IMG/VR virus record: IMGVR_UViG_3300009702_000021
Span: 19,008 to 83,007 of that record
Source: a virus
DNA length: 64,000 bases
Direction: 5' to 3' (one strand)
Made by a program: the position numbers and the translations under genes
The notes under the pieces: generated by a model
What the model saw: only the letters and a program-made list of their open reading frames with translations
The model's database searches: none
What the model was told of the DNA's origin: nothing
In this document: one piece after another, positions 2,220 through 62,992 of the stretch
Position numbering within the stretch: the stretch's first letter is position 1
How the letters are laid out: each line of letters starts with the position of its first letter

Positions 2220-2255
2220 GACTTGCGGTACCGCAAATCTCCTGAGGAGTAACCC

Positions 2256-5878: not shown

Positions 5879-6069
5879 TGAGTGAAGCTGAGAAGATCGC
5901 CAGAGCATTCCATGAGGCCTACGAGCGGCTTGCTCCTGCATACAGCTACAAGACCCGAAAGGCCAGTGCCGTAGACTGGCTTGATGTACCGGAGAACAAC
6001 AGGGCCCTCATGGTGGCTACCGTTCAGGACCTCATCGACCGTGGTGATGTTGCGGTACCGCAAACATGA
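5878..6069 (+). CDS. Small phage protein, RyR-repeat-like
   Basis: IARAFHEAY...W.DVPE.NR pattern; start overlaps the upstream stop. Confidence 0.5.
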   Translation: MSEAEKIARAFHEAYERLAPAYSYKTRKASAVDWLDVPENNRALMVATVQDLIDRGDVAVPQT

Positions 6070-8641: not shown

Positions 8642-8706
8642 GATCGCAGAGTGGGGCCTGAGTTTGCGGTACCGCAAACCGTTAGAGCACAGCAAAGGAG
8701 CACCTG

Positions 8707-15996: not shown

Positions 15997-18900
15997 ATGG
16001 GAAAGAAACGCACTTGGTTCCCACACTTCCACGTCCATGACGAGCACTCGATCAAGGACGGCTGCTCGACCGTCGAGACCTACGCCGACCTGGTAGTTGA
16101 GTCAGGCGGAGACTGCCTAGCGATCACGAATCACGGGCAGGCAGCCGGGTTCGCGCGCCAGTACTTCGCCTGCCGTGACCGAAAGATCAAGCCCGTCTTC
16201 GGCATGGAGGCCTACGTCAACGAGTGGAGGACTCGCCCGATCAAGAGGCTCCAGGAGGAGCTGAAGAAGGCCGAGAAGGCTGCCAAGAAGTCGCCAGCCA
16301 GGCTCTCACAGATCAAGGCCAAGCAGGAGTCCCTCAAGCGGTTCATTGCTGAGCGGTTCCGGCCAAGCCCACATGCGATCATCCTCGCTAAGAACCGGGT
16401 CGGCTACCAGAACCTCGTTCGCATGAGCACGGACAGCTACCAGCACGGCTTCTACTATGTGCCGCGGACCGACACCAAGTTCCTCTCCGAGCACCGCGAG
16501 GGGCTGATCTACAGCACAGCCTGCATCGGTGGCTACATCCCCAGGATGGCCCGGGTAGACTTCGCCGCTGCGTGCGAGGAGGCTCGTCGGCTCAAGGCGA
16601 TCTTCGAGGACGGCGGAGGTGGCTTCTACGTCGAGCTGATGATCACCGAGTACGAAGCACAGCGTGAGACCAACGAGGTCATGATCCGGCTCGCCACCGA
16701 GATCGGCGCCAAGTGCATCCTGACCTGCGACGTCCACTACGCGAAGCCCGACGACGGGCAGGCGCAGAACGTCCTCCTGCTGATGCGGGACAAGAAGACG
16801 ATAGCCGACCGGGAGGCCGGCGAGGGAGTCTGGCAGTTCGAGGCTAAGGACCTCTGGTGGAGGACGGTCCAGGACGTGGTCCAGTGCTGGAGGGAGAACC
16901 ACTCGGACTACATGGACCGGAGCTGTTTCCAGGCTGCCCTCAAGAACACCCTTGCCCTGGCAGACGAGATCGAGGACGTCGAGTTCGATACGAGCCTCAA
17001 GCTACCTGGGGTCTTCAAGGAGCCAGATCACGACCTCAAGGAGCTGGTCAAGTCGGGCTTGCGGTACCGCAAGGAGCACGGGCAGCTAGCGCCGGGAGTC
17101 AAGCTCTCGGAGTACACCGATCGGATCAAGCGTGAACTATCGGTCATCAGCCCCAAGGGGTTCAGCGAGTACTTCCTGATCCTGCACGACGTCTGCCGGG
17201 CAGCCCGGGAGATGGGAGCCCGCATGGGCCCGGGCCGCGGTAGTGCCGGCGGATCCCTGACGGCCTACCTCTGTCGGATAACCGAGATTGATCCGCTCAG
17301 GTTCGGACTCCTGTTCGAGCGGTTCCTCGATGCCGGCCGCGATGACCCACCGGACATTGACCTCGATTTCTCCCCGGAACACCGAGACGGCATCAAGGCC
17401 TATGTCGAGAAGGCCTACCCGGCAACTGCAACGATCGGGTCCAACGCTACATTCAAGCCGCGCGCCACGCTCCAGGACGTCGGCCGGGTCTTCGGGATCG
17501 ACTACCGGGAGATGCAGCAGATAACCAAGCCCCTGGGTACCGAAGCTGATGACATGACGTGGGATGAAATCTTCGAGGCCTGGCCGGCCGTTGAGAGGTT
17601 TGCTGACGACCACCCGGAGGCGTGGAGCGTCGTCCGGGTCCTCCGGGGGCTCATCAGCCACCGCGGCAAGAATGCTGCCGGGATGCTCATCGCTCCGGCC
17701 TCAGCCCTCAACGACGTCCCGATGATCATGGAGACGGACAGCAAGGGCAACAAGATGACCGTGACAGCATTTGCGGACAGCCAGGGAGACGGAGTCGAGC
17801 ACAAGGGGCGGGAGCTGACTCGACTCGGCTACCTAAAGGCCGACCTGCTCGGTGTCCGAAACCTGAACATCGCGCCGCAAGCAGTCGAGATCGTAGCGCG
17901 GGATACTGGGCAGGAGATCGACCTAGAGTCACTCTCCCTCGACGACGAGGAGACGCTCCAGACTGCGGCAACGGGAGACGTCCCAGGGGCCTTCCAGCTC
18001 GACACCAACACGACGCGACCGATCCTCCGTCACGTCGGGGTAGATAGCTTCGCTGACCTAGTCATGATTACTGCCCTCTGCCGACCAGGTCCCCTCAAGA
18101 ATCAGATTCATCGTGAGTTCGCCAAACTCAAGCGCAGCGATGCATGGGAGGACGATGTACTGCCAGAACTAAGGGAGCTGCTCCGGGACAGCCGCGGACT
18201 CATGGTCCTCCAGGAGGACGTCATGTGGGTCGTGCAGGTAGTCAGCGGCATGTCGATGCAGGAGGCCAACATGCTCCGAAAGATCATGTCGAAGAAGCAA
18301 CCTGAGGCGATGAAGCAGTGGAAGGAGAGGTTCGTTGAGGGAGGCAAGGAGGTAGGGCTCGCCACGGAAGAGGAGCTGGTCGAGCTGTGGGACAAGATCA
18401 AGACCTTTGCCGGCTACGGGTTCAATAAATGTGTATGTTATAATCAGCCCATCACCGTGAGGCGGACTTGCGGTACCGCAAAGGAGACTGATCGTGGGCA
18501 AGAGTACACCAACGAAGTGCGCGTGTGGGGCGGTGTTCCCGAAGAAGAAGTTGTGGGTGGACCACAAGAGGACGTGCAGTCCACACAAGGAGATAGTCAA
18601 ACAGGCCCGGCTGTCCAACCTCGCCAAGGCCAATGCACCGGATGCGAGGGAGAGGGCGCGAAAGACTTTCCTGATGAGGGATTACGAGGTAACCGAGGCC
18701 CAGAGAGATGCTCGAAGGAAGAATGCCCGCAAGCACCTCACGCCGTGGGCGCAGAGCGAGGATGGCAGGAGGGTGTCTTCCGAGACAGCCAAGAAAACGT
18801 CAGCGAGGAAGGATGTCAAGCAGGCGAGGGCGAAGCGCATGAAAGAGTGGGTGCGAAACAATCCAGGAGTGATCGCTCGGACAGGTCAGCGTGCAGCGGC

Positions 18901-21543: not shown

Positions 21544-21869
21544 GCAAGCCGATGTTTCAGAAAAGGGATCTCGACCTCATCCGAGCCGCGACCTGGGGCT
21601 GCTGGGACGCGGTGAAGACCAAAGACCACCTCGGGGACGCGGCTAGGAAGCGAGGTCTCGTAGCCAGGACCGCGACCGGTGATGCCCACGAGACAGCCTT
21701 CAAGTGGGCCCGGCAGGAGCAGAGGGCCCACGATCTGCTTGCGGTACCGCAACCCATCAACGGGACCCTGCGGGATTACATCGCCTGCACCTGCTCCTAC
21801 GACGAGAGTGAGGAGATGACGCGCCATGCTCCGCTATGCTCGATCACCAAGGCGGGGATCAACTGGTGA
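21540..21869 (+). CDS. Hypothetical protein
   Basis: TTG start after GGAGGAGG; overlaps the dnaB start. Confidence 0.45.
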   Translation: MSKPMFQKRDLDLIRAATWGCWDAVKTKDHLGDAARKRGLVARTATGDAHETAFKWARQEQRAHDLLAVPQPINGTLRDYIACTCSYDESEEMTRHAPLCSITKAGINW

Positions 21870-24948: not shown

Positions 24949-25032
24949 CCGACTAGCGGTACCGCAAAAAGTTTTGCGACGGAACGACGGACTACCACGT
25001 TCGTTAGGTCGGGCTCGAGCTAGCGACATCGA

Positions 25033-27119: not shown

Positions 27120-27159
27120 GCCTTGCGGTACCGCAAACCCCCCAACCCCTGAGGAGACG

Positions 27160-29510: not shown

Positions 29511-30152
29511 ATGGTGAAGCCCACTGAGCCCCGCCTGACCCTCGACGTCGTCCCGGCCACCTGCCACTACAGCAACCTCCGCACGGAGCTGCCCCGGCAG
29601 TCCTGGAACCGGCTCAGGGCGAAGGCTTACTTCCGTGCCCGTTACCGCTGCGAGGTCTGTGGAGGCCGTGGTCCGGAACACCCCGTTGAGGCCCACGAAC
29701 AGTGGGCCTACGAGATACCGGACGACCACAGCCAGATGCCTACACAGCGGCTCACTGGCATCATCGCGCTCTGCCCGGACTGCCACGAGGTCAAGCACTA
29801 CGGGCTCGCCCAGGTCCGCGGCCGGGAGGCCGAGGCCCTCGCTTACCTCTGCCGGGTCAACGGCTACACGGACATCCAGGCCGAGGAGGCGATCTATCTC
29901 GAGGCGATGGTCTACCGCGCCAGGTCGACCCTGCTCTGGCGGTTGGACGTCTCACTGATCCTTGAGATGGGGGAGAGCGAGCTGTATGTCCAGGAGGTCA
30001 TGGACCGGCGGGACGCCAAGAACGCAGTCGTCGCCGCTGAGCATGTCCAGGACCTCGACGCGTTCATCCAGATCGCCCGTGAGATCCTTGCGGTACCGCC
30101 AACCCCGGAACCTGAACCTGAGGATTCGACGGACGGATTTAAGTGGGTCTGA
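29511..30152 (+). CDS. HNH-family endonuclease-like protein
   Basis: CEVCG...AHE.W...LCPDCHEVKH. Confidence 0.75.
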   Translation: MVKPTEPRLTLDVVPATCHYSNLRTELPRQSWNRLRAKAYFRARYRCEVCGGRGPEHPVEAHEQWAYEIPDDHSQMPTQRLTGIIALCPDCHEVKHYGLAQVRGREAEALAYLCRVNGYTDIQAEEAIYLEAMVYRARSTLLWRLDVSLILEMGESELYVQEVMDRRDAKNAVVAAEHVQDLDAFIQIAREILAVPPTPEPEPEDSTDGFKWV

Positions 30153-30313: not shown

Positions 30314-33300
30314 ATGAGCAAGAGCAGGTTGACCCCGGTCCTGAAGGGCCTCAACCCCATAGAGAAGTCGAGAGTTGAGACCTGGGTGCCCACGGACCGG
30401 GAGGGCCTGGTCGTTCGGGTCAGGGATCCCGGACCCGGTGAGGGGATCCCGGTCACCCTGATCGAGGACCTGACTGAGGTAGAGGTCCACGACGAGACAT
30501 CCGGTGCGTGGATCCGGGGCCGCGCCGCAGCACAGACTACCCCTGGCTGGCCCGTCACGCTGATCAAGGCCGTCGAGAGGATCCGCGCCGAGGCCGAGCG
30601 AGCCATGGTCTGCCCGGAGTGCGACAGCTACCTGATCCTCCGGGACCGGGACCTAGAGTGCGCGGAGTGCGGACTGTGCATGAACCCCGACTGCCCGAAC
30701 TGCGGAGGCCGGACGGCCTTGCGGTACCGCAAGCTCAAGGGCCAGCCAGCCGACATCCCTCCGGCATTCTGGGCGTGCCGGGATGATGCCTGCGCCTCTG
30801 CGCTCCTGTGGGGCCAGCGAGACCCTCAACCACAGCAGGTCCCGGATAAGCCGTGGACGGAGCACGGGGAGAGGGAGGAGCAGATCGCGGAGGCGCGTGA
30901 GGTCCTAGATCACCCGCTGGTCTCGGAAGCCAATGCGGTCAAGAAGCTGCGAGTGATCCTCGACGAGAACCCCGACCGGGTCCTGCCACTGGTCCTCGGG
31001 GAGACCACGCCCTCAGGCAAGAAGACGGTCCAAGCCAGGCTCGAGGAAAAGCTGGCTGAGGAGCGCCGGCAGGGCAAGCCACGACGCCGGGTCAAGAGGC
31101 GTGCCCAGAAGGCACGCCGGGTCCAGCCCGGGGAGAAGCGTGAGGGTATCAAGTACTACGGCCCCGAGGACTCATTGCCTGGTCCGTCCGGGACGTCCCT
31201 GGTCGAGGTCCCTGAGGACGATGAGACCTCCGTGGCGTCGTCTGTCTACCCACACCACCGGCTAGCTCATGCAGCGCTGAACCCGATCCAGTCGCGCGTC
31301 CTCGATGTCTATGACCGGAACTGCAACGTGGTGATCGCCGCCAGCACCAGTGCTGGTAAGACCCTCAGCGCTGAGATGGTCATGGGTGACGCCCTCGACC
31401 GCGGCGCCAAAGCGATCTTCCTCGCGCCGCTCCGGGCCGTCAGCCAGGAGAAGTACGACGACTGGTGCGATGAGGACCACCCGTGGTCAGAACTAGGGGT
31501 CGAAATCTGCACGGGTGACTACACGATGAGCCAGGCGAAGCGGAAGGCCCTGCGCCGCGCCGACGTGATCGTGATGACATCTGAGATGCTCGACTCCAAG
31601 ACGCGTCGGATGGGGAGCGACGAGAACGGCTGGCTGATGGAGACACTCTGCGTGGTCGGCTCCTCCGGGATTGCACTTGCGGACGGGACTACGAAGACAA
31701 TCAAGGAGATCGTGGAGGAGCGTCTCGAGATTGAGGTCTTAGCTTTCAATCACTCGATTGGGAAAGTCGTCAAGCGCAGGGTGACGGGATGGCACAAGAA
31801 CCGGTTAGGAGACAGGAATCTCGTTGAGATCACTTGCGGTACCGCAAGTCTGACCTGCACCGAAGATCATGAGATATACCAGCGAGGCGTGGGGTATACT
31901 GCTGCCAGGAAGCTCACATCTTCGAGCACGCTGGAGGTGCTGGATGCCGGTCAAGAAGGGACACAGATTCGGCGCGAAGCGCACGGTCGAGCTGACGGAC
32001 ATAGAGCGATCGGTTGTCATAGGGACACTGCTCGGAGACAGCTCACTATCGTGGGGAACAGGGAACCGGGTAAGTGCCAGAATGCGTGTGAGGAACAGCC
32101 TCGCACAGCGGGAGTTCGTGTTGTGGAAGTACGAGATGCTTCGGCGTCTTGTGCGGACTCCTCCGAAGGAGGCGCCGAATCGTGGATACAAGCGCGACGG
32201 AATGGCATTCGGATTTTCCACGAGGTCCTTCGGAGAGGACCTACTCAAGATCAAACAATTGATCGAACCCGGGAAGACGGTGACGCGCGATCTGCTGGAC
32301 TTGTTGACGGAGCCAGAGGGACTGGCCGCGTGGTACATGGACGACGGATCGAGGTCGAGGGGGGCGAGTCTCGTACTACATACACAGTCAATGACTGCCG
32401 ACGAGGTGCGGTTGACGTCGCGTTGGCTCAGGGAGGAGTGGAATATCGAGACCAGGCCGATGTCGGTCAAGAACAGAGCCTACGAGGTGCTACGTATTCC
32501 GGCGGAATCAGGCGAGCGGTTTATGGATATCGTGAGACCATTCGTGACCGGGATAACATGCATGGAGCACAAGGTATTGCACAGGAGAGAGTCGCTGTTC
32601 TGCACGATGTGCGGCACAGGGTTCGAGGCAACGAGGCGTCAGATCCAGCGCGAGACGAGACTTGTCACCTGCCGGTCCGAGGACTGCATGAGGGCCCTAG
32701 CCCGTATGATTCAGAGACTGAACGACGCGAGGATCGGTTCGTCTACGACCTAACCGTCGAGGGTGAGCACAACTACTTCGCCGAGGGAGTCCTGGTCCAC
32801 AACTGCGTGGTCGTTGACGAGGCTCACCTGCTAACGATGAAGGACCGCGGCGACGCCTTGGAGTGCGGACTCGAGCGATTCACTCGGTTCAACCCCCACG
32901 CTAGGATCGTCCTCCTCAGCGCGACCATGCCGAACGTCCATGAGCTAGGGTCCTGGCTGACCCGCCTGAACGGGAAGCCGACCCGCCTTGTCCAGAGCGC
33001 GTGGCGTCCCACCAAGCTGACCGTTCACCCCGTGCCGTACGACCACCAGACGTCGGGTTACAGCTACCACAAGAACGAGGACTCCAAGCGGGCTAAGGCG
33101 ATCGAGCTGCTCCAGAAGTACAGCGAGGACAAGTGGATCGTCTTCGTCCACACGAAGAAGATGGGCCACGCCCTGCTGGCCCAGCTACGGGACCGGCACG
33201 AGCCAGCCGAATTCCATAGCGCTGACCTCACCCGAGACAACAGGCTCCGGCTCGAGGACCGGTTCAGGCACGGAGACCTCAGGGTCGTCGTAGCCACTTC

Positions 33301-34424: not shown

Positions 34425-34452
34425 CTGACTAGATTAGAGTTAGAGGTGAGCT

Positions 34453-34710
34453 ATGGCAAAGAAGCGAATCAAGCGACCGAACAACCCCGCTGGGGATGCG
34501 GTACCGCAAACTCCGACCATCATAGTCAATGACCCTACGTCCTCGGTTGACTTTAGCCGTGACGCTAAGGGGCAGCCCCGTTGGACCATCAAGGTCTATG
34601 GGGATGCTGACCAGATGGACGAGGTCCTCGATGAGGTCCTCCGGCTCGACCGGGAGCTACTCCGCCGCACCACCATCGGGGAACAGAGAGAGGACCCCGA
34701 CGATGAGTAA
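34453..34710 (+). CDS. Hypothetical protein
   Basis: GAGGTG RBS; first gene after the promoter. Confidence 0.55.
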   Translation: MAKKRIKRPNNPAGDAVPQTPTIIVNDPTSSVDFSRDAKGQPRWTIKVYGDADQMDEVLDEVLRLDRELLRRTTIGEQREDPDDE

Positions 34711-35155
34711 GAACAGGATCAGACGGCGCAAGAAGGCTCGGAGAAAGCGCCCACAGGATCGCTCGAGTGGTAGTCCCGAGGGGTTGACCATGGATGAGAT
34801 GCTGAACCGGATCAACGAGGCCAAGGACCCGACGTGGATGACGACTGATGAGGTCAGGCACGTCTTCAACGACTGCCACGTCGTCACGGTCTACAAGATG
34901 AACGCCCGGAAGGAGTTGACTCCCTACAGGAGGAGGTCAACGGGACCGTCCAATTACTACAGGCGCGATCAGGTCGAGAGCGCCGTTAGGCGCCGGTTCC
35001 AGCTGGTCCAGGCAAGCAGCGACAGCACAGGGAGTGATGATGGGGCAGTCTACGAGACGGGCGTCCTTCGGGGAGCCAGGGGTCGTCCTCGCAAGAGCCA
35101 GAACGACGACACGAAGCCGCGCCGGAAGGCCAAGCGACGGAACAAGCCCAGGTGA
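34703..35155 (+). CDS. MerR/excisionase-like HTH DNA-binding protein
   Basis: WMTTDEV...TVYKM...YYRRDQV; AT-hook-like RGRPRK. Confidence 0.55.
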   Translation: MSKNRIRRRKKARRKRPQDRSSGSPEGLTMDEMLNRINEAKDPTWMTTDEVRHVFNDCHVVTVYKMNARKELTPYRRRSTGPSNYYRRDQVESAVRRRFQLVQASSDSTGSDDGAVYETGVLRGARGRPRKSQNDDTKPRRKAKRRNKPR

Positions 35156-35735
35156 CCTGCTCACGGTCGAGACTACGGTTAGGAATCTGGCCTATCAGAT
35201 GCGCCGAAACATCCCACTGCTCCGTGACCTCGACAACGAGGACCTGGTCCAGGAGTGCTACGTGAAGGCCCTCACGAGCCTAGACCACTATGACCCTAGG
35301 CTCTCATCGCTCAAGACGTGGACCGTAGGGATCGCTAGGAATCACCTGGTGAGCGTGGCCCGCAGGATTGGATCACGGCCCCAGGTAAACCGGGAGGACA
35401 TTGAGATAGTCTCCGGCGTGCCTGGCTCAGCGGATCCGTCCTATGAGCCAGATATTGGTCGCAGGGTCGTGCTACGTTCCCAGACCAAGGAGATGCTCGG
35501 GTGGCTCTCGCAGTGTCCCGACGGGATCGACCAGGGGTGGGCGGTCCTGAACCTCCTACTCAAGACGAACGCTAACTGGAGCTACACCGCCAACGCCCTC
35601 TGCATCCACACCGGGCAGGCATGGACCACTGAACGCGTGCGCAATGTGGTGCGCGCGATCAAGAAGACTCCTCGCGGACAAGCGCTGTGCGACTCCCTGG
35701 GAATCCGTATCGACAACGACAACGAAGGAGACTGA
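35034..35735 (+). CDS. RNA polymerase sigma factor (ECF-like); start uncertain
   Basis: Region-2 motif EDLVQE.YVKA...YDP...LKTW..GIARN. Confidence 0.7.
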   Translation: MMMGQSTRRASFGEPGVVLARARTTTRSRAGRPSDGTSPGDLLTVETTVRNLAYQMRRNIPLLRDLDNEDLVQECYVKALTSLDHYDPRLSSLKTWTVGIARNHLVSVARRIGSRPQVNREDIEIVSGVPGSADPSYEPDIGRRVVLRSQTKEMLGWLSQCPDGIDQGWAVLNLLLKTNANWSYTANALCIHTGQAWTTERVRNVVRAIKKTPRGQALCDSLGIRIDNDNEGD

Positions 35736-35736
35736 A

Positions 35737-37110
35737 ATGGCTCGGGTTGCTACCAAGAAGACCAACAAGAAGGCTGACCCTCTCGATGACCTCGAGCGCG
35801 AGATCGCGGAAGACCTCGAGAGCGAGTTCGACCCGGAGGACCTCGATGGGGACGAAGCGCCGGCCAACGAGGCCAGTAAGCCGGCGAAGGCCCTGTTGGG
35901 GCAGATCGTCAGCTTCACCAACGATGAGGGGGCGACGATCACCGGTAAGGTGATCGAGGCCGGCCTCACCGACGAGGACACCAACGAGTTTGACCCGGAC
36001 GGCGTGACCGTCGAGGACGAGGAGGCGTTCTGGGACACGACGCACGACCAGTGTACTGTTCACGGCGGCAAGAAGGACTCCGGTAAGAAGGCACCGGCAA
36101 AGACTTCCGGCCGTAAGCCTAAGGCCGCCAAGTCGTCGGCCAAGACGGAGGACAAGGACGGGACTGGGGCGCGTGAGCGCCGCATGATCGAGGTCGGCAA
36201 GGTCAAGGTGTCGCGCGACAAGCCACGCGACGTCGACAAGGAGTCGCCGCGCTACAAGCGGATCCTGGCGGACATCAAGAAGCGCGGTCAGCGCCATCCG
36301 ATCGACGTCGAGTCGTTCAGCAAGCCCACGCTGATCGACGGGCTCCGTCGGCTCTCCATCGCTGAGGACCTGGGCTGGACCCACATCGAGTGCCAGGAGG
36401 ACGAGAAGGTCGAGGACGCGGACGACCGGCTGTTCCACGGCCTGATGGACAACGAGGCCAGGGAGGAGATGAGCTGGGTCGACATCGGCCGCACGACGGC
36501 CAAGCTCGTCAACGGGGGTAAGTACTCCCAGCGGAAGATCGCCCGGAGCCTCGGGCTCAGCGAGTCGCAACTGTCCAAGATGGTCAGCGCCGTCTCCAAG
36601 AAGGGGCTGCCGAAGAAGCTGCTTTCCATCGCGGAGAACGGGTCGGTTGACCCCGGTGACGAGAAGCACTCCAACTACTCGATGTCGGTCTTCCTGGAGT
36701 TGCCGACGGCGTCGAAGAAGGTCCAGGACCAGGTCTACGAGCTGATGTCTGATGGCAAGCCCTGTTCGCTCCAGGACCTCCGCAACCTCAAGAAGGCCGA
36801 CAAGAAGGAGCGCCAGGCGGCTGGCGAGGACGTCGGTGAGGATCGCCCGAGCAGCAGCAGCGGTGCGTCCTCCTCGACCTACCAGGCGGTCAAGGTGGGC
36901 GACTGGATCGAGTTCAAGGTCGTCCAGGACGAGGTCGTGGTCAAGGTCACCCTCGACTGGCCGAAGAAGACGTTCCGGGGCTTCGACCCGGTCCAGGAGA
37001 TCAAGGAGGCCCTCGAGGTCGCCTACGGGGACGAGAACAAGGCCGACAGCATCGACTCCGACAAGGCGCTCGGGACGGCCCTCTCGCGGGCCAAGAAGGA
37101 GCTGGCCTAG
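35737..37110 (+). CDS. parB: ParB-family protein (ParB/Srx N-domain plus HTH) with a long acidic N-terminal extension
   Basis: IKKRGQRHPI.V...LIDGLRR (GxxR-type box), DNEARE, HTH SQRKIARSLGLSESQLSK; AAGGAG RBS. Confidence 0.75.
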   Translation: MARVATKKTNKKADPLDDLEREIAEDLESEFDPEDLDGDEAPANEASKPAKALLGQIVSFTNDEGATITGKVIEAGLTDEDTNEFDPDGVTVEDEEAFWDTTHDQCTVHGGKKDSGKKAPAKTSGRKPKAAKSSAKTEDKDGTGARERRMIEVGKVKVSRDKPRDVDKESPRYKRILADIKKRGQRHPIDVESFSKPTLIDGLRRLSIAEDLGWTHIECQEDEKVEDADDRLFHGLMDNEAREEMSWVDIGRTTAKLVNGGKYSQRKIARSLGLSESQLSKMVSAVSKKGLPKKLLSIAENGSVDPGDEKHSNYSMSVFLELPTASKKVQDQVYELMSDGKPCSLQDLRNLKKADKKERQAAGEDVGEDRPSSSSGASSSTYQAVKVGDWIEFKVVQDEVVVKVTLDWPKKTFRGFDPVQEIKEALEVAYGDENKADSIDSDKALGTALSRAKKELA

Positions 37111-37130
37111 CAGGGTCCAGGGGCCGAGAC

Positions 37131-37661: not shown

Positions 37662-37695
37662 CCTTGCGGTACCGCTAACAGCAAAGGAGCCAGAG

Positions 37696-38544: not shown

Positions 38545-38581
38545 CCTGACCTTGCGGTACCGCAAAGTGAAGGAGGTTGAA

Positions 38582-40099: not shown

Positions 40100-42332
40100 G
40101 ACAAAGAAGAAGGCCAAGCGGAAGGCCAAGCCGACCGCGAAGAAGCAGCAGCGCGCCGCGGTCAAGAAGGCCGCCAAGCAGGACTCCGGCGGGACCCTCG
40201 CAGAGCGCCGCGCGAAGATCCGGGAGCGCTATGACCGACAAGTAGTGGTCTACGCCGATGACCCGCCAGCAGAGTTTGCACCGATTGACTTCGTCATGCT
40301 TGCCCGGCTGCTCGGTGGAGGGATCAAGCAGGGTGCAGTGGTCGAGATCGCGGGCTGGGAGGACTCAGGGAAGATGCAGCACGTTGACGAGCCTGTCTTG
40401 ACTCCGACTGGCTGGAAGAGGATCGGCGACCTCGTGATCGGCGACCTCGTGATCGGAGCGGACGGGAAGCCCACCCCCGTTGATGGCGTGTTCCCACAGG
40501 GGGTCCTCGAGTCCTACGAAGTGACGTTCTCAGACGGAGCGAAGACTGAGTGTGGAGACGAGCACCTGTGGCTCACCAGGACCATGCTGGACCGTGAGAG
40601 GGGCACTCCTGGCTCGGTGAAGACCCTCTCGGACATTCGTAGGACCATCAGGCGCGGCCGGAATCCCAACCACTCGATCCCCCTGGTGTCCCCGGTCGAG
40701 TTTGCGGTACCTCAAGACCTCCCGATTGACCCGTATACCCTGGGCCTCCTGATCGGGGACGGGAGCATCATCGGGTCCAGTGTCGTCCTCCATAACCCAG
40801 AGAGGGATGTCGTCGATCGGTTTGAGTCAGGTCTCCCCTACGGTGACCTGACCAGCCCCTACGAGTCTCCAGGTAAGTGCCTGGCTACGAGAGTCAGGAG
40901 CCCAGTGATGTCTGCCTCGTCAGCTACGGCAGAGGCCCTGCGGGACCTGGGGCTAGCTGGGTGTCGCTCCTACGAGAAGTTCATTCCCGAACCCTATCGG
41001 TTCGCCTCGATTGAGGACCGTCGCAACCTGCTCCTTGGGCTCATGGACACGGACGGGACGGTCGACAAGCCGGGTCAGCCGTCGGTGTCCTACTCGACAT
41101 CATCGGAGCGTCTCGCGGACGACGTCGCCTTCCTGGTGCGTTCACTGGGTGGTATCGCCCGGACGACGAGCAGGATTCCGCGCTACAAGTACAGGGGCCT
41201 GCTCAAGAATGGCCGGAGGACCTATCGGATTTCGATTCAATTCCCCTGTGGGTGGTGCCCGGTGTCGAGCGAGAAGCACGTCTCTCGCTGGAGCCCACCG
41301 AGGCTGATCAAGCACCGGAGCATCGTCGGGGTCCGTGCTGTCGGGGCTAAGGAGAGTGTCTGCATCAGCGTTGCTGCACCTGACGGGCTCTACGTGACTC
41401 GCGACTTTATCGTCACCCACAACACGTCTCTAGTGGTTGCTATCGCGGGGATGATCCAGCGCGCTGCACCGGAGGGTAAGAAGCACGTTGTCATGGTCAA
41501 CTTCGAGATCGTCGAGGACCGCGTCTGGTGGGCCACGCTCGGGCTCCAGACCGATGACGACCACTTCACCATGATCGCCAACGTCCCTCTCGAGGAGGGG
41601 ATCGGGGCCCTCGCTGACCTGATCCGGTCCGGGGAGGTCTGCTGTGCCATCGTGGACTCGGTCTACGCCGCGTCATCACGGGCGAATGACGAGCTTCTCA
41701 ACAACTGGGCGGACCCGAAGGGCAAGCAGGGTGGCGGAGGAGGGATCGGTGTCGAGGCCCGCCAGTGGGGCGTAGCCTGGACTGCCATGAAGGGCCTGTT
41801 CACCGAGTTCGGCGTGATCTGCCTGGCGGTCAATCAGGTCAGGATCAAGATCGAGATGGGAGGTGGGGGTAAGAAGTCGTATGGGCCTCCGCCGACCACG
41901 ACGCCGCGGGGCAGCGCGCTCAAGTTCTACGCCTGGATTCGGCTCGAGCTGACCGGACGGCTCCTGGTCGACGACAAGAACAAGAAGCGCACCGACGTCG
42001 ACGGCCGGCAGATCAGGATCCGGGTCATCAAGAACAAGACCTCGGGCGACCAGCGCGGGCTCTGCCACTACGACCTCATCCGCGGTCAGGGATTCGACCT
42101 CACGAACGAGCTGATTGAGCTTGCCAAGGAGGCAGGTGCGATCCGTCAGAAGGGCGGCTGGTACTACATCGGGAAGGCCACCAAGGTCCAGGGCGCGGCG
42201 AAGCTGCGCGCGTGGGTCGAGGCCGAGCCCCGGCGCCGGGATGTCCTCCGGCAGGTCGTCAAGAGGTATCTGAGTAAGGTCGATGACGACGAGCTGTTTG
42301 AGGAGGTCAACCTCGATGCCGATGACGAGTAG
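40089..42332 (+). CDS. recA: RecA-like recombinase containing an intein
   Basis: VEIAGWEDSGK|T, IVDSV, NQVR.KI, TPRGSALKFYA, KNK, GGWY. Confidence 0.9.
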   Translation: MPPKTKKKAKRKAKPTAKKQQRAAVKKAAKQDSGGTLAERRAKIRERYDRQVVVYADDPPAEFAPIDFVMLARLLGGGIKQGAVVEIAGWEDSGKMQHVDEPVLTPTGWKRIGDLVIGDLVIGADGKPTPVDGVFPQGVLESYEVTFSDGAKTECGDEHLWLTRTMLDRERGTPGSVKTLSDIRRTIRRGRNPNHSIPLVSPVEFAVPQDLPIDPYTLGLLIGDGSIIGSSVVLHNPERDVVDRFESGLPYGDLTSPYESPGKCLATRVRSPVMSASSATAEALRDLGLAGCRSYEKFIPEPYRFASIEDRRNLLLGLMDTDGTVDKPGQPSVSYSTSSERLADDVAFLVRSLGGIARTTSRIPRYKYRGLLKNGRRTYRISIQFPCGWCPVSSEKHVSRWSPPRLIKHRSIVGVRAVGAKESVCISVAAPDGLYVTRDFIVTHNTSLVVAIAGMIQRAAPEGKKHVVMVNFEIVEDRVWWATLGLQTDDDHFTMIANVPLEEGIGALADLIRSGEVCCAIVDSVYAASSRANDELLNNWADPKGKQGGGGGIGVEARQWGVAWTAMKGLFTEFGVICLAVNQVRIKIEMGGGGKKSYGPPPTTTPRGSALKFYAWIRLELTGRLLVDDKNKKRTDVDGRQIRIRVIKNKTSGDQRGLCHYDLIRGQGFDLTNELIELAKEAGAIRQKGGWYYIGKATKVQGAAKLRAWVEAEPRRRDVLRQVVKRYLSKVDDDELFEEVNLDADDE
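40374..41423 (+). mobile_element. Class 3-type intein with LAGLIDADG endonuclease, in the RecA Walker A
   Basis: Begins with Met; EHLW, VCISV, THN followed by T; LGLLIGDG and LGLMDTDG motifs. Confidence 0.9.
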
Positions 42333-42672: not shown

Positions 42673-42709
42673 GTCGGGCTTGCGGTACCGCAAGCCCGAC
42701 CTAGCTCTC
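42664..42709. repeat. Perfect 46-bp palindrome centred on the 14-bp motif
   Basis: gagagctaggtcgggcttgcggt|accgcaagcccgacctagctctc. Confidence 0.9.
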
Positions 42710-44846: not shown

Positions 44847-47189
44847 ACGACGCTCGACTGGCTGAGGTGATGAAGAATCTCACGGGGCGCGCAGAGCTAC
44901 CAGGTGACCTGGTGCGGGTCGAGGACGGGGTGACACGGGACGAGCTTCGCCGGGCCCTAACGGACCTCGCGAATCTTCGCCGGGCCGACCGGAACCTCAG
45001 GATCATGGGCAAGGCAGTCAGGATCACAGTAGTCAGCGACCTCTGCACGGCCCTCCGGGAGAGCATCGCCCTGCAAGCACACTACGCCGCGCTGCTGAAC
45101 ATGCACGACGGCGGCGAGCGAGTGATCTTCCACACCGTCGATGAGTGGGAGACCCGGCTGAGGGAGATCGGCAAGCTATGAGCAACTGGCCCGGGGACAG
45201 CATTGACTGGCGTGGTATCCGGCCCGGAGACTTGGTCACCATGGTTCCGGCTTCGTCCTCTCCGACCGCCCAGCGAGGCTATGTCGTCACCAAGCCTGAC
45301 GGCCGGCTGGCTCTCGCATACTGGGACTCCAAGAGTGCCGTGATGGCCCAGCACATGCTCGACCTCTGGGCAGCGGCCGGCCAATGCACCCGGACGAAGA
45401 GGGAGGCCAGGAAGCTGGCCTCAGGACGGCAGCCGTGAGTGACGACATCGACGACCTGATGGACGAGATCAAGTCCCTGCCCCCCATCGAGCGCGCGTGC
45501 TGCCACAAGGCTAATCCGTGCTGGGACTGCCCACTTGCGGTACCGCAAACCGAGGCGTGAGGAGACGACATGAGCAGCAACATCGTGAGGCTCTGTGGGC
45601 GACGTGGGCTCATGGCCTGGTGTCATAGCTGTGTGGACTGGGAGCCGTTCACCACAGGACCCAGCGGGTGTAGTCACTGTAGGGTCTGCCGGAAGCCTAT
45701 GCCCGAGGTATACAGCTACGCGGATAGCGCTCCTCCGACTAGGACGTGGAAGCAACAGGCGGAGGTCCAGCCCGAGGCACCGGAGCGAGAGCCGACGTGG
45801 TGGCTCTACACCGAGTATGACGAGGCCGGAGTGGTCCGGTCAGCAGCGACGCCGGAGGATACCCTTAGGGACGCCCTAGCGGCCGGATGGTGCCCGACCG
45901 GAGAGGTCTTCGCCTACCGGCTGGTCGACATGGAGATCCTCGGATGCTACCGAGACGGGGAGCTGTTCCTGGATGGAGCAGTCGGTCCAGAGACGCCAAG
46001 TAAGGAGTGGTGTTGCACGGTCTGTGGGTCCCTGATCCCAGATGACATGGTCTCGGTAGCGAACGCAGACGGTAGTGGACGTCGTCACGTTATCGGGTCA
46101 CCGAACTGCCACCCCGGGAGCCCCCAGTGACCCTGACCGAACTCGAGGACCGCCTGACCGAGATCCGCAGGATCGCCTCGGCGTCAGGCCAGAAGCCGGG
46201 TAGTTACCTGGTCGAGATCCTTTCCAGCGACCCGGAGGGACTCATCAGCATCGCTTTGAAGAGCGTGAAGGTTGACCACAGGAGGAACACCATCACCCTA
46301 CGGACGTGGAGCTAACATGGTGCATGCCTCTTACGGTCTCGGTGGTGCTGGTCTTCGCAGAGTCGCCCGAGGTCGCCCGGAAGTGGATCGCCGCTCACCA
46401 GCGACCAGGGGTGATCTTCGCCTACGCCTACCGCTGGTCGTCGATCGTCGGCCGGAACCGCGAGAGCACATTCTGGGCCCGCGTCGGGGAGTGGTGGCGA
46501 ATCGAGTCCAACGAGGAAGCGATCTGGTGGGCCAAGGACAACGGTTACCAGGAGTGGTCCTGTGAGCTACTGGATCGTGACCTATGAGTACGACTCGTTA
46601 AACCCGCACGCCTCGAAGCGCTACGAGACCGAGGTCTGTGAGGGTGACCTAGGGGTGTGGTGGGCCGACAAGCTCGAGTGGTATCGGCGCTATGCCGATG
46701 AGGGCCGCGAGTCCGAGAGGATCGCCGAGGAAGATGGCCGCAAGGTTCCGCTCGCTGATCGACGCTACTCGGTCAAGCTCTCCATCATCAACGCGACACC
46801 GATCCTCAGGAGGGGCTACGAGCGCCTCAAGGAACTTACTGGATGAAGTGGAAGCTGATGCACCTGGTGACGTCGCATGACCTCGAGATGAACCGCCGCT
46901 GGTGGAGCGCCGACGGGGAGTGGGTACGCGCCTGGAGTGAGGGTCGGATCTACGACTCAAGGATGTCCGCCCGGATGGGGCGCAAGGTCGCGGTCAAGCG
47001 CAGCGGGCTCCAGGACACCAAGCGGGTCCGGCTCGTCCCGGTCTGTGACGACGGGGGCCGGTGCCACCACGACTGTATGCCCGAGGACTACGCCGAGGGG
47101 CAGGGGTGCTTCCGGCGCCAGCACGCCTCGCCACTCTCCGCGACGGGGCACGAGACCTGGGAAGCGTTCGACAACGCAGCGGAGACCGA

Positions 47190-48526: not shown

Positions 48527-48587
48527 CAAGCCGGGGAGGCCGGTACCTCCCCGGCTTGCGATACCGCAAAGCTTGCGATACCGCAAA
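48527..48587 (+). promoter_or_regulatory. Hairpin overlapping a tandem pair of variant palindromes
   Basis: caagccggggagg/cctccccggcttg stem, then (gcttgcgataccgcaaa)x2 running into an AGGAGG RBS. Confidence 0.7.
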
Positions 48588-51150: not shown

Positions 51151-51827
51151 GATTCATCACGGATCAGGATTTCAGGGAGTACCTCGTCGACGGCATGGCC
51201 CGGACCTACCGGGACTGCCAGGCCTGTCCCCTGTCCCGTCACAGGACCAACGTCGTGCTCGGTGACGGTCCGCTCGAGCCGCTCCTGGCGATCATCGGGG
51301 AGGCACCACGGGACGGGGCCGATGACTACGGCGTACCGTTCCATGAGTCTGATGAGCCGAGCCGACTACTCCGCCGGGCCCTGGAGAAGGTCGAGATCGA
51401 CGTTGAGCGGGACGCCTGGATGACCTACGTGGTGTCCTGCCAGCCACGCGATGACCGGAAGGCGCGGCCTGAAGAACGACGCGCCTGTACGGAGCGCCTA
51501 CACGCTGAGATGCGGATCGTGAAGCCCTACGTGATCCTCTGCCTAGGCAAGGCAGCGCTGCACCACGTCTGCCTCAACATCCACCGGTCTGACTCTCTCG
51601 GAAAGCACCGCGGCCTGGTCAAGAAGCAGCACTGGCCCTACGCGTCGTTCGGAGGTTGCGGTACCGCAAACCTCAAATCCGTCTTCGCCACCTACGACCC
51701 GGCCTACCTGATCAGGATGCAGGGCAGCGCAGATCAGCGAAGGATATCTCACCGGTTCGGACAGGACCTTCGCAACGTGAAGCGCGTCTTGGACAAGGTC
51801 GCCAAGAAGGTCAGAAAGACAGGATGA
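51147..51827 (+). CDS. Uracil-DNA glycosylase, family 4-like
   Basis: CxxCxL...V.G.G...IIGEAP...C.P...C...CLGK.A...TY.PAYL. Confidence 0.8.
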   Translation: MRFITDQDFREYLVDGMARTYRDCQACPLSRHRTNVVLGDGPLEPLLAIIGEAPRDGADDYGVPFHESDEPSRLLRRALEKVEIDVERDAWMTYVVSCQPRDDRKARPEERRACTERLHAEMRIVKPYVILCLGKAALHHVCLNIHRSDSLGKHRGLVKKQHWPYASFGGCGTANLKSVFATYDPAYLIRMQGSADQRRISHRFGQDLRNVKRVLDKVAKKVRKTG

Positions 51828-53879: not shown

Positions 53880-54569
53880 ATGAGCGATGACTACAAGCAA
53901 CAGGTCGAGCTGATCAAGAAGCAGTGCAAGGTGGCGGGTCGGAAGCGCAAGAGCAAGCCGAACGTCCTGGTCTTCCGATCCTCCGGGACCGGCAGGGTCG
54001 GAGACCTGGTGACATTCGGTCCGCCCTGCGCACACGACCTGCGCTGGTCCTGTCTGCTCCTCGGGGAGGCACCGAATCGTTGGCAGGGGGAGGATCCGAT
54101 CCAGCGCGGCCGGCACACGCTCTATCGCGAGGACCTGGCCGAGCTATGCGGGCTCACGATGCCAGCGTTCTACCGCTGTTTCGTCCGAGCGAATCTCCTG
54201 AGCCGCTGGCCCGGTCGCTCCGGCCGGGGCTCAGCCTTCCCGCCCGCAGAGGCTCGTAGACGAGCCGAGAGCGTCGCACAGCACCTCGGGTCCTTCCGCA
54301 GCGTGGTCCTGGTCGGGAGACGAGTGGCGCGAGCCTTTGGGCGCTACAAGCAGGACTGGTACGCCTGGTACGACGACGGACCCCGGGTAGCGGTCGTCCC
54401 GCACCCGAGCCGGGTCAACCGCTACTGGAACGACCCGGCCAACGTCCGCGCCGCCGAGGCGTTCTTCCGACTCCTGGCCGAGGGTATCCTCGAGCCGCTC
54501 CGGGCTGAGAGTTTGCGGCGCCGCAATTTGATCGCCGCGGGGCGTGACCCCGACAAGGAGACGCGGTGA
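53880..54569 (+). CDS. Second UDG-superfamily protein
   Basis: LLGEAP...NLL...VVLVGRRVA...VPHPS..NR.WN. Confidence 0.65.
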   Translation: MSDDYKQQVELIKKQCKVAGRKRKSKPNVLVFRSSGTGRVGDLVTFGPPCAHDLRWSCLLLGEAPNRWQGEDPIQRGRHTLYREDLAELCGLTMPAFYRCFVRANLLSRWPGRSGRGSAFPPAEARRRAESVAQHLGSFRSVVLVGRRVARAFGRYKQDWYAWYDDGPRVAVVPHPSRVNRYWNDPANVRAAEAFFRLLAEGILEPLRAESLRRRNLIAAGRDPDKETR

Positions 54570-62927: not shown

Positions 62928-62992
62928 GACCGGAGTTCGTCCCCAGACACCGACGCAAGCTTGCGGTACCGCAAGCCGAGGAGACACCGATT

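What the first reader, a model, noticed from the sequence alone, without database searches (positions are those of the whole stretch)
35737..37110. ParB-family protein without a visible ParA as the candidate reader of the palindrome
Seen: ParB N-domain box (LIDGLRR), an HTH, and an unusual acidic N-terminal extension of about 150 aa; no ParA is evident in the window. Established: ParB, KorB and Noc proteins are CTP-dependent clamps loaded at 13-16 bp palindromes, and KorB and Noc use dispersed sites. Inference: the 14-mer is its parS-like site. Alternative binders are the HTH proteins at 26607 and 34703 and the methyltransferase at 55741.
Basis: inference. Interest (0 to 1): 0.78.

Follow-up and report, generated by a model that had tools for sequence, protein, structure and literature searches.

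The report
Orphan phage ParB and palindrome lattice
An uncultured subsurface phage encodes a partner-less ParB-type DNA-clamp protein that is the most plausible, but still unproven, reader of a 14-base palindrome spaced every 2-3 kb along its genome.

Summary
The gene is real: window 35737-37110 (+), 457 aa. It belongs to the ParB/Noc/KorB superfamily. A 23-cluster family profile hits Noc 7nfu at E 4e-18 and KorB 8qa8 at 2.5e-12 over the N-domain plus HTH. 13 of 23 members hit Pfam HTH_ParB. It is divergent: no Pfam ParB_N hit, and TIGR00180 scores below its cut-off.

A conserved ~145-aa N-terminal extension precedes the ParB core. No ParA, ParA-binding motif or integrase was found in the 83-kb record or in five related fragments.

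The palindrome TTGCGGTACCGCAA is strongly non-random. There are 34 sites with up to 2 mismatches in 83 kb, against 0.25 in shuffles. Spacing is regular (CV 0.43 against 0.97) and no gap exceeds 3.8 kb.

All 3 contigs that cover this gene row carry both the gene and the motif. The neighbouring sigma factor and two small genes co-occur equally, and a relative has four tandem sites beside a different HTH gene. That ParB reads the motif is therefore the best-supported inference (about 0.5), not a result.

Earlier AI notes of this scan describe the same ParB-plus-sigma-plus-lattice arrangement on other phage genomes.

The parts
35737..37110 (+). Orphan ParB-like gene (P0001, 457 aa)
   Evidence: phrog_3264 E 2e-14. 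TIGR00180 E 1.7e-11, below its cut-off. Family profile against PDB: Noc 4e-18, KorB 2.5e-12.
35737..36171 (+). N-terminal extension (res 1-145): Lys-rich tail, acidic helix, small beta-rich domain (res ~45-112), Lys/Ala-rich linker
   Evidence: It lies outside all ParB alignments. It is conserved in 23 family clusters: L19, L27, G55, V58 and G70 are kept in at least 90%. The only structural neighbours are small beta-barrel proteins at TM 0.5-0.6, which is weak. No (L|F|I)G[KR]G(L|F|I) ParA-binding motif in 0 of 23 members.
36172..36486 (+). ParB N-domain (res ~146-250) with box I (..KPR164), box II (G202-L-R-R205; LIDGLRR = 36331-36351) and box III (D238-N239-x-x-R242)
   Evidence: Aligned to Noc 7nfu. 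R164, G202, R205 and N239 are kept in 23 of 23 members and R242 in 22 of 23.
36511..36612 (+). Helix-turn-helix (res ~259-292) followed by the 'LP' motif
   Evidence: PF17762 HTH_ParB in 13 of 23 members. S280 is kept in 22 of 23, R/K281 in 22 of 23 and M282 in 19 of 23.
36874..37107 (+). C-terminal conserved domain (res ~380-457), presumed dimerisation domain
   Evidence: Conserved block. No Pfam ParB_C or KorB_C hit, so the role is inferred.
35034..35735 (+). Sigma-70 family gene. ORF as listed; homology starts near residue 41, so the real start is about 35160.
   Evidence: PF04542 Sigma70_r2 E 2e-10 and phrog_1740. Its stop lies 1 nt before the ParB ATG. The adjacency is kept in L092.
34703..35155 (+).
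   Evidence: No Pfam or PHROG hit. Conserved in L092: 41% identity over 66 aa, E 1e-9.
34453..34710 (+). 85-aa gene that opens the row and carries a palindrome at codon ~15
   Evidence: Conserved in L092 with the site at the same place.
2223..2236 (.). palindrome, exact
6050..6063 (.). palindrome, exact
8664..8677 (.). palindrome, exact
10423..10436 (.). palindrome, 1 mismatch
12488..12501 (.). symmetric variant TTGCGGCGCCGCAA
14749..14762 (.). palindrome, exact, intragenic
17059..17072 (.). palindrome, exact, intragenic
18468..18481 (.). palindrome, exact, intragenic
21739..21752 (.). palindrome, exact
24954..24967 (.). palindrome, 1 mismatch
27123..27136 (.). palindrome, exact, at the stop of the HTH_20 gene 26607-27119
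30088..30101 (.). palindrome, 1 mismatch
30719..30732 (.). palindrome, exact, intragenic
31834..31847 (.). palindrome, exact, intragenic
34496..34509 (.). palindrome, 1 mismatch. Nearest site upstream of the ParB gene (1.2 kb); syntenic site in L092.
37664..37677 (.). palindrome, 1 mismatch. Nearest site downstream of the ParB gene (0.55 kb); syntenic exact site in L091.
38552..38565 (.). palindrome, exact, directly upstream of an SD
40702..40715 (.). palindrome, 1 mismatch, intragenic
42680..42693 (.). palindrome, exact, inside a longer perfect palindrome
45535..45548 (.). palindrome, exact
48556..48569 (.). variant TTGCGATACCGCAA, first of a tandem pair
48573..48586 (.). variant TTGCGATACCGCAA, second of the pair, touching an SD
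51656..51669 (.). palindrome, exact, intragenic
54513..54526 (.). symmetric variant TTGCGGCGCCGCAA
57191..57204 (.). palindrome, exact, intragenic
59633..59646 (.). palindrome, exact
62961..62974 (.). palindrome, exact, upstream of SD and start

Best explanation
P0001 is a divergent, partner-less member of the ParB/Noc/KorB superfamily. Its domains run in this order: a family-specific N-terminal extension, an NTP-binding ParB N-domain, a ParB-type HTH, a flexible linker and a C-terminal domain.

The most likely mechanism is as follows. A dimer recognises the 14-16 bp palindrome YTTGCGGTACCGCAAR through its two HTHs. It binds a nucleotide (CTP by analogy), closes into a clamp and slides onto flanking DNA.

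The sites are kept less than 3.8 kb apart over the whole chromosome, and are written into coding sequence where genes are long. The clamps would therefore cover the entire phage genome rather than one centromere.

No ParA is involved. The gene is translationally coupled to a phage sigma-factor gene, so the output is more likely genome-wide control of transcription or DNA organisation (KorB-like or Noc-like) than partition.

Shown: family membership at sequence level, conserved nucleotide-contact residues, absence of ParA in the sampled DNA, and the motif statistics. Inferred: that this protein binds the motif, that it binds CTP, that it slides, and what that achieves.
For: Family membership.
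- phrog_3264 E 2e-14 and TIGR00180 E 1.7e-11.
- The 23-member profile against PDB gives Noc 7nfu 4e-18, M. xanthus ParB 1e-15, Spo0J 4e-13 and KorB 2.5e-12, over the N-domain plus HTH.
- ESM Atlas: all ten best feature hits are ParB/KorB families (score 0.92-0.94), and structural hits to ParB_N+HTH_ParB proteins reach TM 0.57-0.70 by row.
- HTH_ParB is found in 13 of 23 members.
- R164, G202, R205 and N239 are invariant and R242 is kept in 22 of 23.

The motif looks like a dimer-binding site.
- It is 14 bp of fixed sequence, with Y/R at position +-8 and a G/C preference at +-9 and +-10, and no asymmetric flank (68 sites).
- 11 one-mismatch sites are uncompensated. The only two-mismatch sites are the 2 symmetric central variants.
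- As RNA the hairpin is weak: -4.3 kcal/mol for the 14-mer and -6.8 for the 16-mer.
- Deep intragenic copies occur in all three frames, 6/3/5.

The sites form a lattice.
- Spacing CV is 0.43 against 0.97 for random placement, and the largest gap is 3.8 kb against 9.7 kb. None of 5000 simulations reached either value.
- All 5 ORFs of at least 2.4 kb carry internal sites. 0 of 6 ORFs of 1.5-2.4 kb do.

Co-occurrence and synteny.
- All 3 contigs that cover the gene row carry the gene and the exact motif, with syntenic sites on both sides of the gene. ParB identity is 63% and 43%.
- The recognition-helix residues stay conserved down to 28% overall identity.

No partner or lysogeny genes. No ParA, no ParA-binding motif in 0 of 23 members, and no integrase or resolvase.

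Precedents read in print. KorB is a CTP clamp with 16-bp OB operators acting over more than 1 kb (PMC11790492, passages). Noc nucleates on 16-bp NBS sites (PMC8429893, abstract start in a search listing). Orphan ParBs are common on phages and other mobile elements (PMC12704722, passages).
Against:
- Co-occurrence cannot separate ParB from the co-inherited 85-aa, 150-aa and sigma genes.
- No site lies inside or directly at the ParB gene. The nearest are 1.2 kb upstream and 0.55 kb downstream.
- In the relative G001 the densest site cluster (four at 60-69 bp, plus two more within 1.2 kb) flanks a different, ArsR-type HTH gene.
- G000 also has an HTH_20 protein whose stop abuts a site.
- Sites are enriched about five-fold at gene boundaries and next to SD sequences (13 and 12 of 34, against 2.7 and 5.0 for random positions). 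An ordinary operator or an RNA-level element would show the same pattern.
- P0001 misses Pfam ParB_N and scores below the TIGR00180 cut-off.
- The residues proposed as catalytic in C. crescentus ParB are absent: the Q58 equivalent in 0 of 23 members and the E102 equivalent in 1 of 23. The cycle may therefore differ from canonical ParB.
- The survey paper shows that ParB folds can bind ATP or GTP instead of CTP (PMC12704722).
- The record is 45% complete. With G001 the sampled share is roughly 86% of a composite, so a ParA could still be missing from view.
Confidence: 0.5

Rival explanations
1. The ParB-like protein is real, but another dimeric HTH protein of the phage reads the palindrome. Candidates are the ArsR-type HTH protein encoded beside the four-site cluster in the G001-type half of the genome, the HTH_20 protein at window 26607-27119, and the 150-aa protein at 34703. 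The sites would then be operators of a global repressor, as with mycobacteriophage stoperators (recalled), and ParB would have some other target.
For: Six sites lie within 1.2 kb around the G001 HTH gene (HTH_5, E 9e-5). A site abuts the stop of the HTH_20 gene. Sites are enriched at gene boundaries and next to SD sequences. The 150-aa gene is co-inherited with the motif.
Against: The two HTH proteins are unrelated to each other, and neither could be traced across the lineage here. The 150-aa protein has no detectable HTH family. An operator model does not explain the even spacing or the copies deep inside long genes in all three frames. The four-site cluster lies at the 3' end of the HTH gene at a convergent junction, not at its promoter.
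Confidence: 0.22
2. It is an ordinary partition ParB of a plasmid-like prophage. The ParA lies in the unsampled part of the genome and the palindromes are dispersed centromere sites, as in N15 (recalled).
For: The record is 45% complete. A tandem four-site cluster exists in G001 and resembles a repeat-type centromere. The N-terminus is Lys-rich, as in some ParA-stimulating peptides (recalled).
Against: No ParA was found in 83 kb plus 95 kb of related fragments. The ParA-binding motif is in 0 of 23 family members. There is no integrase or resolvase. The gene sits in a sigma, helicase and RecA replication/expression block. 34 sites is far more than any described centromere set (recalled).
Confidence: 0.07
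3. The palindrome works as RNA. It would be a short hairpin in intercistronic regions that is recognised by a processing or translation factor, and the ParB-like protein would be unrelated to it.
For: 12 of 34 sites have an SD plus start codon within 45 nt downstream, several touching the SD. 13 of 34 lie within 60 nt after a stop codon.
Against: The loop and stem sequences are invariant rather than covarying, single mismatches are not compensated, and the hairpin is weak. 14 of 34 sites lie deep inside ORFs. In G001 the sites flank genes of both orientations. The even spacing is unexplained.
Confidence: 0.08
4. The protein is an adaptor or activator for a DNA-modifying enzyme, like the ParB partners of phage thymine dioxygenases. 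The palindromes would mark where a modification (methylation or hypermodification) is placed.
For: The related half-genome G001 carries two TET-associated glycosyltransferases, a radical-SAM protein and two ParB-like proteins. G000 has an N6/N4 methyltransferase. The palindrome core holds 29 of the 39 GGTACC sites in the record. ParB-dependent 5mYOX enzymes are described in PMC13229309 (abstract and sections 8 and 12 read).
Against: By that paper's abstract, the 5mYOX-associated ParBs lack a DNA-binding domain, whereas P0001 has a ParB HTH. No Tet_JBP gene was found. The modification cluster is absent from the relative G005, which still has the motif. Short-motif enzymes do not explain 14 conserved bases.
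Confidence: 0.08

Closest known systems
Noc (nucleoid occlusion protein of Bacillota)
   Same: It is the best sequence match among solved structures (7nfu, E 4e-18, over the N-domain plus HTH). It is an orphan ParB paralogue without ParA. It nucleates on many dispersed 16-bp palindromes (PMC8429893, abstract start in a search listing).
   Different: Noc is chromosomal and about 280 aa, with a short membrane-targeting N-terminal helix (recalled). P0001 is phage-encoded and has a 145-aa extension with a beta-rich domain. It lacks the GERR Glu and the box I Gln, scores far below the Noc model cut-off (28.7 against 315 bits), and its sites are evenly spaced over a whole viral genome.
KorB of IncP-1 plasmid RK2
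   Same: It is a ParB-family CTP clamp with dispersed palindromic operators. It acts on transcription over more than 1 kb and has 12 sites on a ~60-kb replicon (PMC11790492, passages and reference title). KorB-family clusters are the top ESM feature neighbours, and PDB 8qa8 scores E 2.5e-12.
   Different: KorB has a ParA partner (IncC) and clamp-locking partners KorA and TrbA. None is identifiable here. There is no Pfam KorB or KorB_C hit. Site density is about five-fold higher here and the spacing is regular. The neighbouring gene is a sigma factor.
Canonical chromosomal ParB (Spo0J)
   Same: The domain order is the same, boxes I-III can be recognised, the HTH_ParB and the following 'LP' motif are present, and there is a linker plus a C-terminal domain.
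   Different: There is no ParA, no LG(K/R)GL motif, no Pfam ParB_N hit, and TIGR00180 scores below its cut-off. The sites are not clustered near an origin.
VirB (Shigella) and BisD (ICEclc): ParB-like CTP clamps that regulate transcription
   Same: They are partner-less ParB-like proteins on mobile elements that load at specific sites and act on promoters at a distance (titles and abstracts in the listings).
   Different: They use few sites and are not phage proteins. No sequence comparison was made here.
5mYOX-associated phage ParBs (PMC13229309)
   Same: They are phage-encoded orphan ParB-fold proteins. ParB-like genes of this sort (phrog_620) lie in the related contig G001 next to glycosyltransferases.
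   Different: By the paper's abstract those proteins lack an obvious DNA-binding domain. P0001 has a ParB HTH and sits in a different gene neighbourhood.

Membership tests
ParB/Noc/KorB superfamily (ParB-CTPase fold plus HTH) | N-terminal ParB domain with boxes I, II and III | tested here: met
   The profile aligns to Noc, ParB, Spo0J and KorB structures across the domain. R164, G202, R205 and N239 are kept in 23 of 23 members and R242 in 22 of 23. Caveat: Pfam PF02195 misses P0001 and hits only 2 of 23 members.
ParB/Noc/KorB superfamily (ParB-CTPase fold plus HTH) | Central ParB-type helix-turn-helix | tested here: met
   PF17762 is found in 13 of 23 members, best E 2.7e-7. The alignment to the Noc HTH continues through the 'LKLP' motif.
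ParB/Noc/KorB superfamily (ParB-CTPase fold plus HTH) | C-terminal dimerisation domain | tested here: inconclusive
   A conserved ~80-aa C-terminal block follows a low-complexity linker.
ParB/Noc/KorB superfamily (ParB-CTPase fold plus HTH) | CTP binding, N-domain engagement and sliding | not testable with these tools
   Only residue conservation could be examined. The Gln and Glu proposed as catalytic in PMC8367383 are absent in 23 of 23 and 22 of 23 members.
Canonical ParABS partition ParB (TIGR00180) | Score over the curated TIGR00180 cut-off | tested here: not met
   44.2 bits against a cut-off of 58.45.
Canonical ParABS partition ParB (TIGR00180) | ParA partner gene nearby | tested here: not met
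   PF13614 and PF01656 find nothing in G000 or G001-G005, and the controls ring in 14 of 14 genomes. All these records are fragments.
Canonical ParABS partition ParB (TIGR00180) | ParA-binding motif (L|F|I)G[KR]G(L|F|I), as defined in PMC12704722 | tested here: not met
   0 of 23 family members.
Noc (TIGR04285) | Score over the curated cut-off | tested here: not met
   28.7 bits against a cut-off of 315.
KorB (PF08535, PF06613) | KorB DNA-binding and KorB_C domains | tested here: not met
   No hit in P0001 at E up to 1 or in any of the 23 members at E up to 0.01. There is only feature-level likeness in the ESM Atlas.
parS/NBS/OB-type site | A 14-16 bp palindrome specifically bound by the protein | not testable with these tools
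   The palindrome exists, is over-represented and co-occurs with the gene in 3 of 3 contigs. Binding is not tested.

The most novel reading that the evidence does not exclude
A virulent phage coats its whole chromosome with a ParA-independent ParB clamp. The clamp is loaded from an evenly spaced lattice of about one site per 2.3 kb. Because the family lacks the residues proposed as catalytic in C. crescentus ParB, the clamp is naturally slow to hydrolyse or 'locked'. This would give a phage 'chromatin' that works with the co-transcribed phage sigma factor to programme transcription, or that shields or organises the DNA. The conserved N-terminal beta-barrel extension would be the docking module for the partner.
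Probability: 0.3. Interest if true: 0.85.

Novelty: new variant of a known kind. Interest (0 to 1): 0.66.

Why it matters
ParB-CTP clamps are known from chromosome and plasmid partition and from a few regulators: KorB, Noc, VirB and BisD. Orphan ParBs are known to be frequent in phages, but their roles are mostly unknown (PMC12704722, passages read).

This case would pair such an orphan with a complete, evenly spaced set of candidate loading sites on a lytic-looking phage genome, next to a phage sigma factor. If binding is confirmed, it gives a defined system (one protein, one 16-bp site) for two questions. The first is what a genome-wide clamp lattice does for a virus. The second is whether a ParB fold lacking the proposed catalytic Gln and Glu still cycles.

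My searches found no paper describing a phage with such a lattice. These searches cover open-access text only.

Tried and rejected
The ESM Atlas's own low-confidence model (pTM 0.40) was used only as a lead.

More loci through the search for related loci.
- Nothing in viral contigs with P0001, A1, A3, P0005, A4 or the RecA-like C-terminus.
- Nothing in genome contigs with A1.
- Two loci in metagenome contigs.

Cultured phages. No tblastn match at 1e-5. At E up to 0.1 there were only 7 weak hits, 6 of them under genes annotated as (DNA) methyltransferase and one under a hypothetical protein. There was no megablast match for 20 kb of the window.

Fused forms. None among proteins of 801-2285 aa, which is weak evidence.

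Promoter reading of the motif. Rejected, because there is no conserved asymmetric flank and the site lies 0-20 nt from the SD in many cases.

Intrinsic terminator reading. Rejected, because no T-run follows the site.

Methyltransferase as sole reader. Rejected as unlikely, because 14 conserved bases exceed the usual target sizes (recalled).

Sister lineage using the symmetric variant. None found: 107 stretches, and the 80 listed are all single copies. This also serves as a control.

Expression. No RNA holder was listed. The only run is one DNA run from a subsurface metagenome, probably the source.

Supplementary files of PMC12704722 and PMC13229309 (datasets of ParB families and contigs) were not opened. 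They may list this family.
Full report
WHAT IS THERE

The window is bases 19008-83007 of an 83,007-base IMG/VR virus record that CheckV rates 45% complete. The only public run that holds it is a subsurface metagenome, probably its source. All well-supported genes of the record lie on the + strand.

The finding's ORF is real. ATG 35737 to TGA 37110 gives 457 aa, kept as P0001. AAGGAG lies 7 nt upstream. The stop of the preceding gene ends one base before the ATG. Homologues start with the same MAR/MAK N-terminus.

FAMILY

Pfam gives P0001 no ParB_N hit, only weak generic HTH hits. A Pfam ParB_N search of the whole record is also empty.

Other libraries see a ParB.
- PHROGs gives phrog_3264 'ParB-like partition protein' at E 2e-14 over residues 142-290.
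- NCBIfam gives TIGR00180 at E 1.7e-11, but with 44 bits against a cut-off of 58. Noc and RepB models score far below their cut-offs.

An exhaustive phmmer search of 1.84 billion representatives found 22 proteins at E up to 1e-10. These are full-length relatives of 430-530 aa. Below them come ordinary ParB-sized proteins that match only residues ~140-310.

A profile of 23 family members (A2) hits solved structures clearly across the N-domain and the HTH:
- Noc 7nfu, 4e-18
- M. xanthus ParB, 1e-15
- Spo0J 1vz0, 4e-13
- KorB 8qa8, 2.5e-12
- C. crescentus ParB 6t1f, 1.5e-10

13 of the 23 members hit Pfam HTH_ParB, and 2 hit ParB_N. In the ESM Atlas all ten best feature neighbours are ParB/KorB families. 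The Atlas's own (poor) model aligns to ParB_N+HTH_ParB proteins at TM 0.57-0.70 by row.

The protein therefore belongs to the ParB/Noc/KorB superfamily. It forms a distinct, so far unnamed family known only from metagenomes (ENA, Logan and JGI; the one name given is 'hypothetical protein'). It has no relative among 50,697 deposited phage records at E 1e-5.

ANATOMY

Residues 1-145 lie outside every ParB alignment. They consist of a Lys-rich tail, an acidic helix (DLExEIxxDL), a beta-rich domain of about 60 aa and a Lys/Ala-rich linker. All of these are conserved in the family. The only structural neighbours of residues 45-112 are small beta-barrel proteins at TM 0.5-0.6. That is a lead and no more.

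The ParB core keeps these residues:
- the box I Arg, R164, in 23 of 23 members
- box II G202 and R205, each in 23 of 23; R204 is R, H or T
- box III N239 in 23 of 23 and R242 in 22 of 23

Two other positions are not kept. The position of the box I Gln is never Gln (0 of 23). The Glu of 'GERR' is Leu in 17 members and Glu in only 1 of 23.

In C. crescentus ParB these two residues (Q58 and E102) are the ones the authors speculate are catalytic. E102A binds CTP and closes, but does not hydrolyse and leaves DNA about 15 times more slowly (PMC8367383, passages read). By inference, this family may bind a nucleotide but cycle slowly.

The recognition-helix residues (S-E-S-x-V-S-R-M) are conserved even at 28% overall identity. 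The canonical ParA-binding motif, as defined in PMC12704722, is absent from all 23 members.

THE PALINDROME

TTGCGGTACCGCAA occurs 17 times in the window and 21 times in the record. The same letters read backwards give 0. Allowing mismatches, there are 21 exact, 11 one-mismatch and 2 two-mismatch sites, against 0, 0.05 and 0.25 in 20 shuffles.

Over 68 sites from eight related sequences, the conserved width is 14 bp. Position +-8 is Y/R, positions +-9 and +-10 show a symmetric G/C preference, and there is no asymmetric flank.

Single mismatches are not compensated. The only double changes are the symmetric central variant GGCGCC. As RNA the hairpin is weak. Fourteen sites lie deep inside ORFs, in all three frames.

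These features fit a site read as double-stranded DNA by a symmetric dimer. They do not fit a hairpin, a promoter or a terminator.

Placement.
- Spacing is much more even than chance. The CV is 0.43 against 0.97 and the largest gap is 3.8 kb against 9.7 kb. None of 5000 simulations reached either value.
- Sites prefer gene boundaries. 13 of 34 lie within 60 nt after a stop codon (random 2.7), and 12 of 34 have an SD plus start within 45 nt downstream (random 5.0).
- All 5 ORFs of at least 2.4 kb carry internal sites, whereas 0 of 6 ORFs of 1.5-2.4 kb do.

The simplest reading is selection for a maximum distance between sites. Sites would sit in non-coding DNA where possible and be written into genes where not.

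RELATIVES

A pattern scan of IMG/VR found 83 stretches with the motif. Only six contigs hold more than one copy. A control scan with the symmetric variant gave 107 stretches, and all 80 listed are single copies.

G003, G004, L067 and L077 are syntenic with the structural part of G000 at 35-80% protein identity. G002 and G005 are kin of G001.

G001 is 46 kb with 15 exact sites and 23 core sites. It shares one gene with the right end of G000 (67% identity). Otherwise it carries what G000 lacks: terminase, portal and protease. It is therefore the other half of a related genome.

None of these fragments covers the ParB region, and none encodes a P0001 relative. Two metagenome contigs do cover it.
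- L091 (ParB 63% identical) has two exact sites and one symmetric variant in 7.9 kb.
- L092 (43% identical) has one exact site in 3 kb.

The sites on either side of the gene are syntenic with those of G000.

So gene and motif co-occur in 3 of 3 contigs that cover the place, and no motif-bearing relative is seen to lack the gene. This does not single out ParB. The gene row of 85-aa gene, 150-aa gene, sigma factor and ParB is inherited as a block.

CONTEXT

The gene directly upstream is a sigma-70 family factor (Sigma70_r2 E 2e-10), and the two genes are translationally coupled. Downstream lie two conserved genes without family hits and a HIRAN-domain gene.

No ParA (PF13614, PF01656) was found in G000 or in G001-G005, while the controls ring in 14 of 14 genomes. 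No integrase or resolvase was found in G000-G004. All these records are fragments. G000 plus G001 amounts to roughly 86% of a composite by CheckV's figures.

MECHANISM

I commit to this reading. A ParA-independent ParB-type clamp is loaded at the palindromes and spreads over the whole phage chromosome. Its likely output is global control of transcription or DNA organisation, together with or alongside the neighbouring sigma factor.

Shown: family membership, conserved nucleotide-contact residues, absence of ParA in the sampled DNA, and the site statistics and synteny. Inferred: binding, nucleotide use, sliding and function.

The strongest rival (0.22) is another dimeric HTH protein. In G001, four sites at 60-69 bp spacing plus two more lie around an ArsR-type HTH gene at a convergent junction. 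In G000 an HTH_20 gene ends at a site. The two proteins are unrelated to each other.

Weaker rivals are a true partition system with an unseen ParA, an RNA-level role, and an adaptor role in DNA modification. The last is suggested by the glycosyltransferase, radical-SAM and ParB-like cluster in G001 and by PMC13229309 (abstract and sections 8 and 12 read). However, that paper's abstract says its ParBs lack a DNA-binding domain. No Tet_JBP gene was found here.

COMPARISON AND NOVELTY

The closest known systems are:
- Noc, an orphan with many dispersed 16-bp sites and the best sequence match
- KorB, with dispersed operators, long-range silencing by a sliding clamp and 12 sites on RK2 (PMC11790492, passages)

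P0001 fails the curated thresholds of TIGR00180, Noc and the KorB domains. I therefore file it only in the superfamily, as a new family.

Orphan ParBs on phages are described in general terms (PMC12704722, passages). Four full-text searches found no description of a phage with an evenly spaced, genome-wide ParB-type site lattice.

Earlier AI notes of this scan (e1-5884756, e1-5750360, e1-5945964) report the same arrangement on other phage genomes, one of them also beside a sigma factor. I saw these notes after finding the sigma gene here. I treat them as leads, not as support.

VERDICT

This is a new variant of a known kind. Interest is 0.66.

Noticed in passing
L084-L086 (G001 = IMGVR_UViG_3300009702_000035), G001 14387-19944: Between the terminase (20046-21974) and the portal gene lie two TET-associated glycosyltransferases (PF20691), a radical-SAM/SPASM protein and two short ParB-like proteins (phrog_620) without an HTH. 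This looks like a DNA-hypermodification cluster. PF12851 finds no Tet_JBP gene. The relative G005 has only one ParB-like gene at this place.
   Followed up: partly
L085 10349-10551 (G001 30349-30551): Four copies of the palindrome lie at 69/60/60-bp spacing at a convergent gene junction. They sit next to an ArsR-type HTH gene that lies downstream of an HNH endonuclease gene. Two more sites lie within and upstream of that gene.
   Followed up: partly
G000 82451-82747 (window 63444-63740) and G001 43684-44091: The only gene shared by the two records (67% identity) lies at the right end of both. G001 in reverse therefore continues a G000-type genome, giving a composite of about 127 kb.
   Followed up: partly
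window 48556-48586: Two copies of the asymmetric variant TTGCGATACCGCAA start 17 bp apart. The second touches an AGGAGG Shine-Dalgarno sequence.
   Followed up: no
whole record G000 and G001: Outside the palindrome core GGTACC is rare: 10 copies against about 27 expected from base composition in G000, and 7 against 15 in G001. GTAC is at about 0.6 of expectation. This could reflect restriction avoidance or codon usage.
   Followed up: no
window 39161-39318: ARAGORN calls a tRNA-Ile(TAT) and, 3 nt later, a tRNA with a four-base anticodon (aaat). The second may be an artefact or a frameshift-suppressor-like tRNA.
   Followed up: no
window 34396-34424: This is the only sigma-70-type promoter match in 33500-39500 (TAGACA-17-TATACT). 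It lies just upstream of the row of 85-aa gene, 150-aa gene, sigma and ParB, and about 70 bp before the palindrome at 34496. It is a consensus match only.
   Followed up: no
window 38360-39022: A HIRAN-domain protein (PF08797, E 2e-9) is encoded two genes downstream of the ParB gene, directly after an exact palindrome.
   Followed up: no
window 18468, 31834, 40702: Three of the seven sites inside the five longest ORFs lie in the stretches that earlier notes of this scan call inteins (DnaE, Ski2-like helicase, RecA-like). Inserted DNA would thus also carry lattice sites.
   Followed up: no
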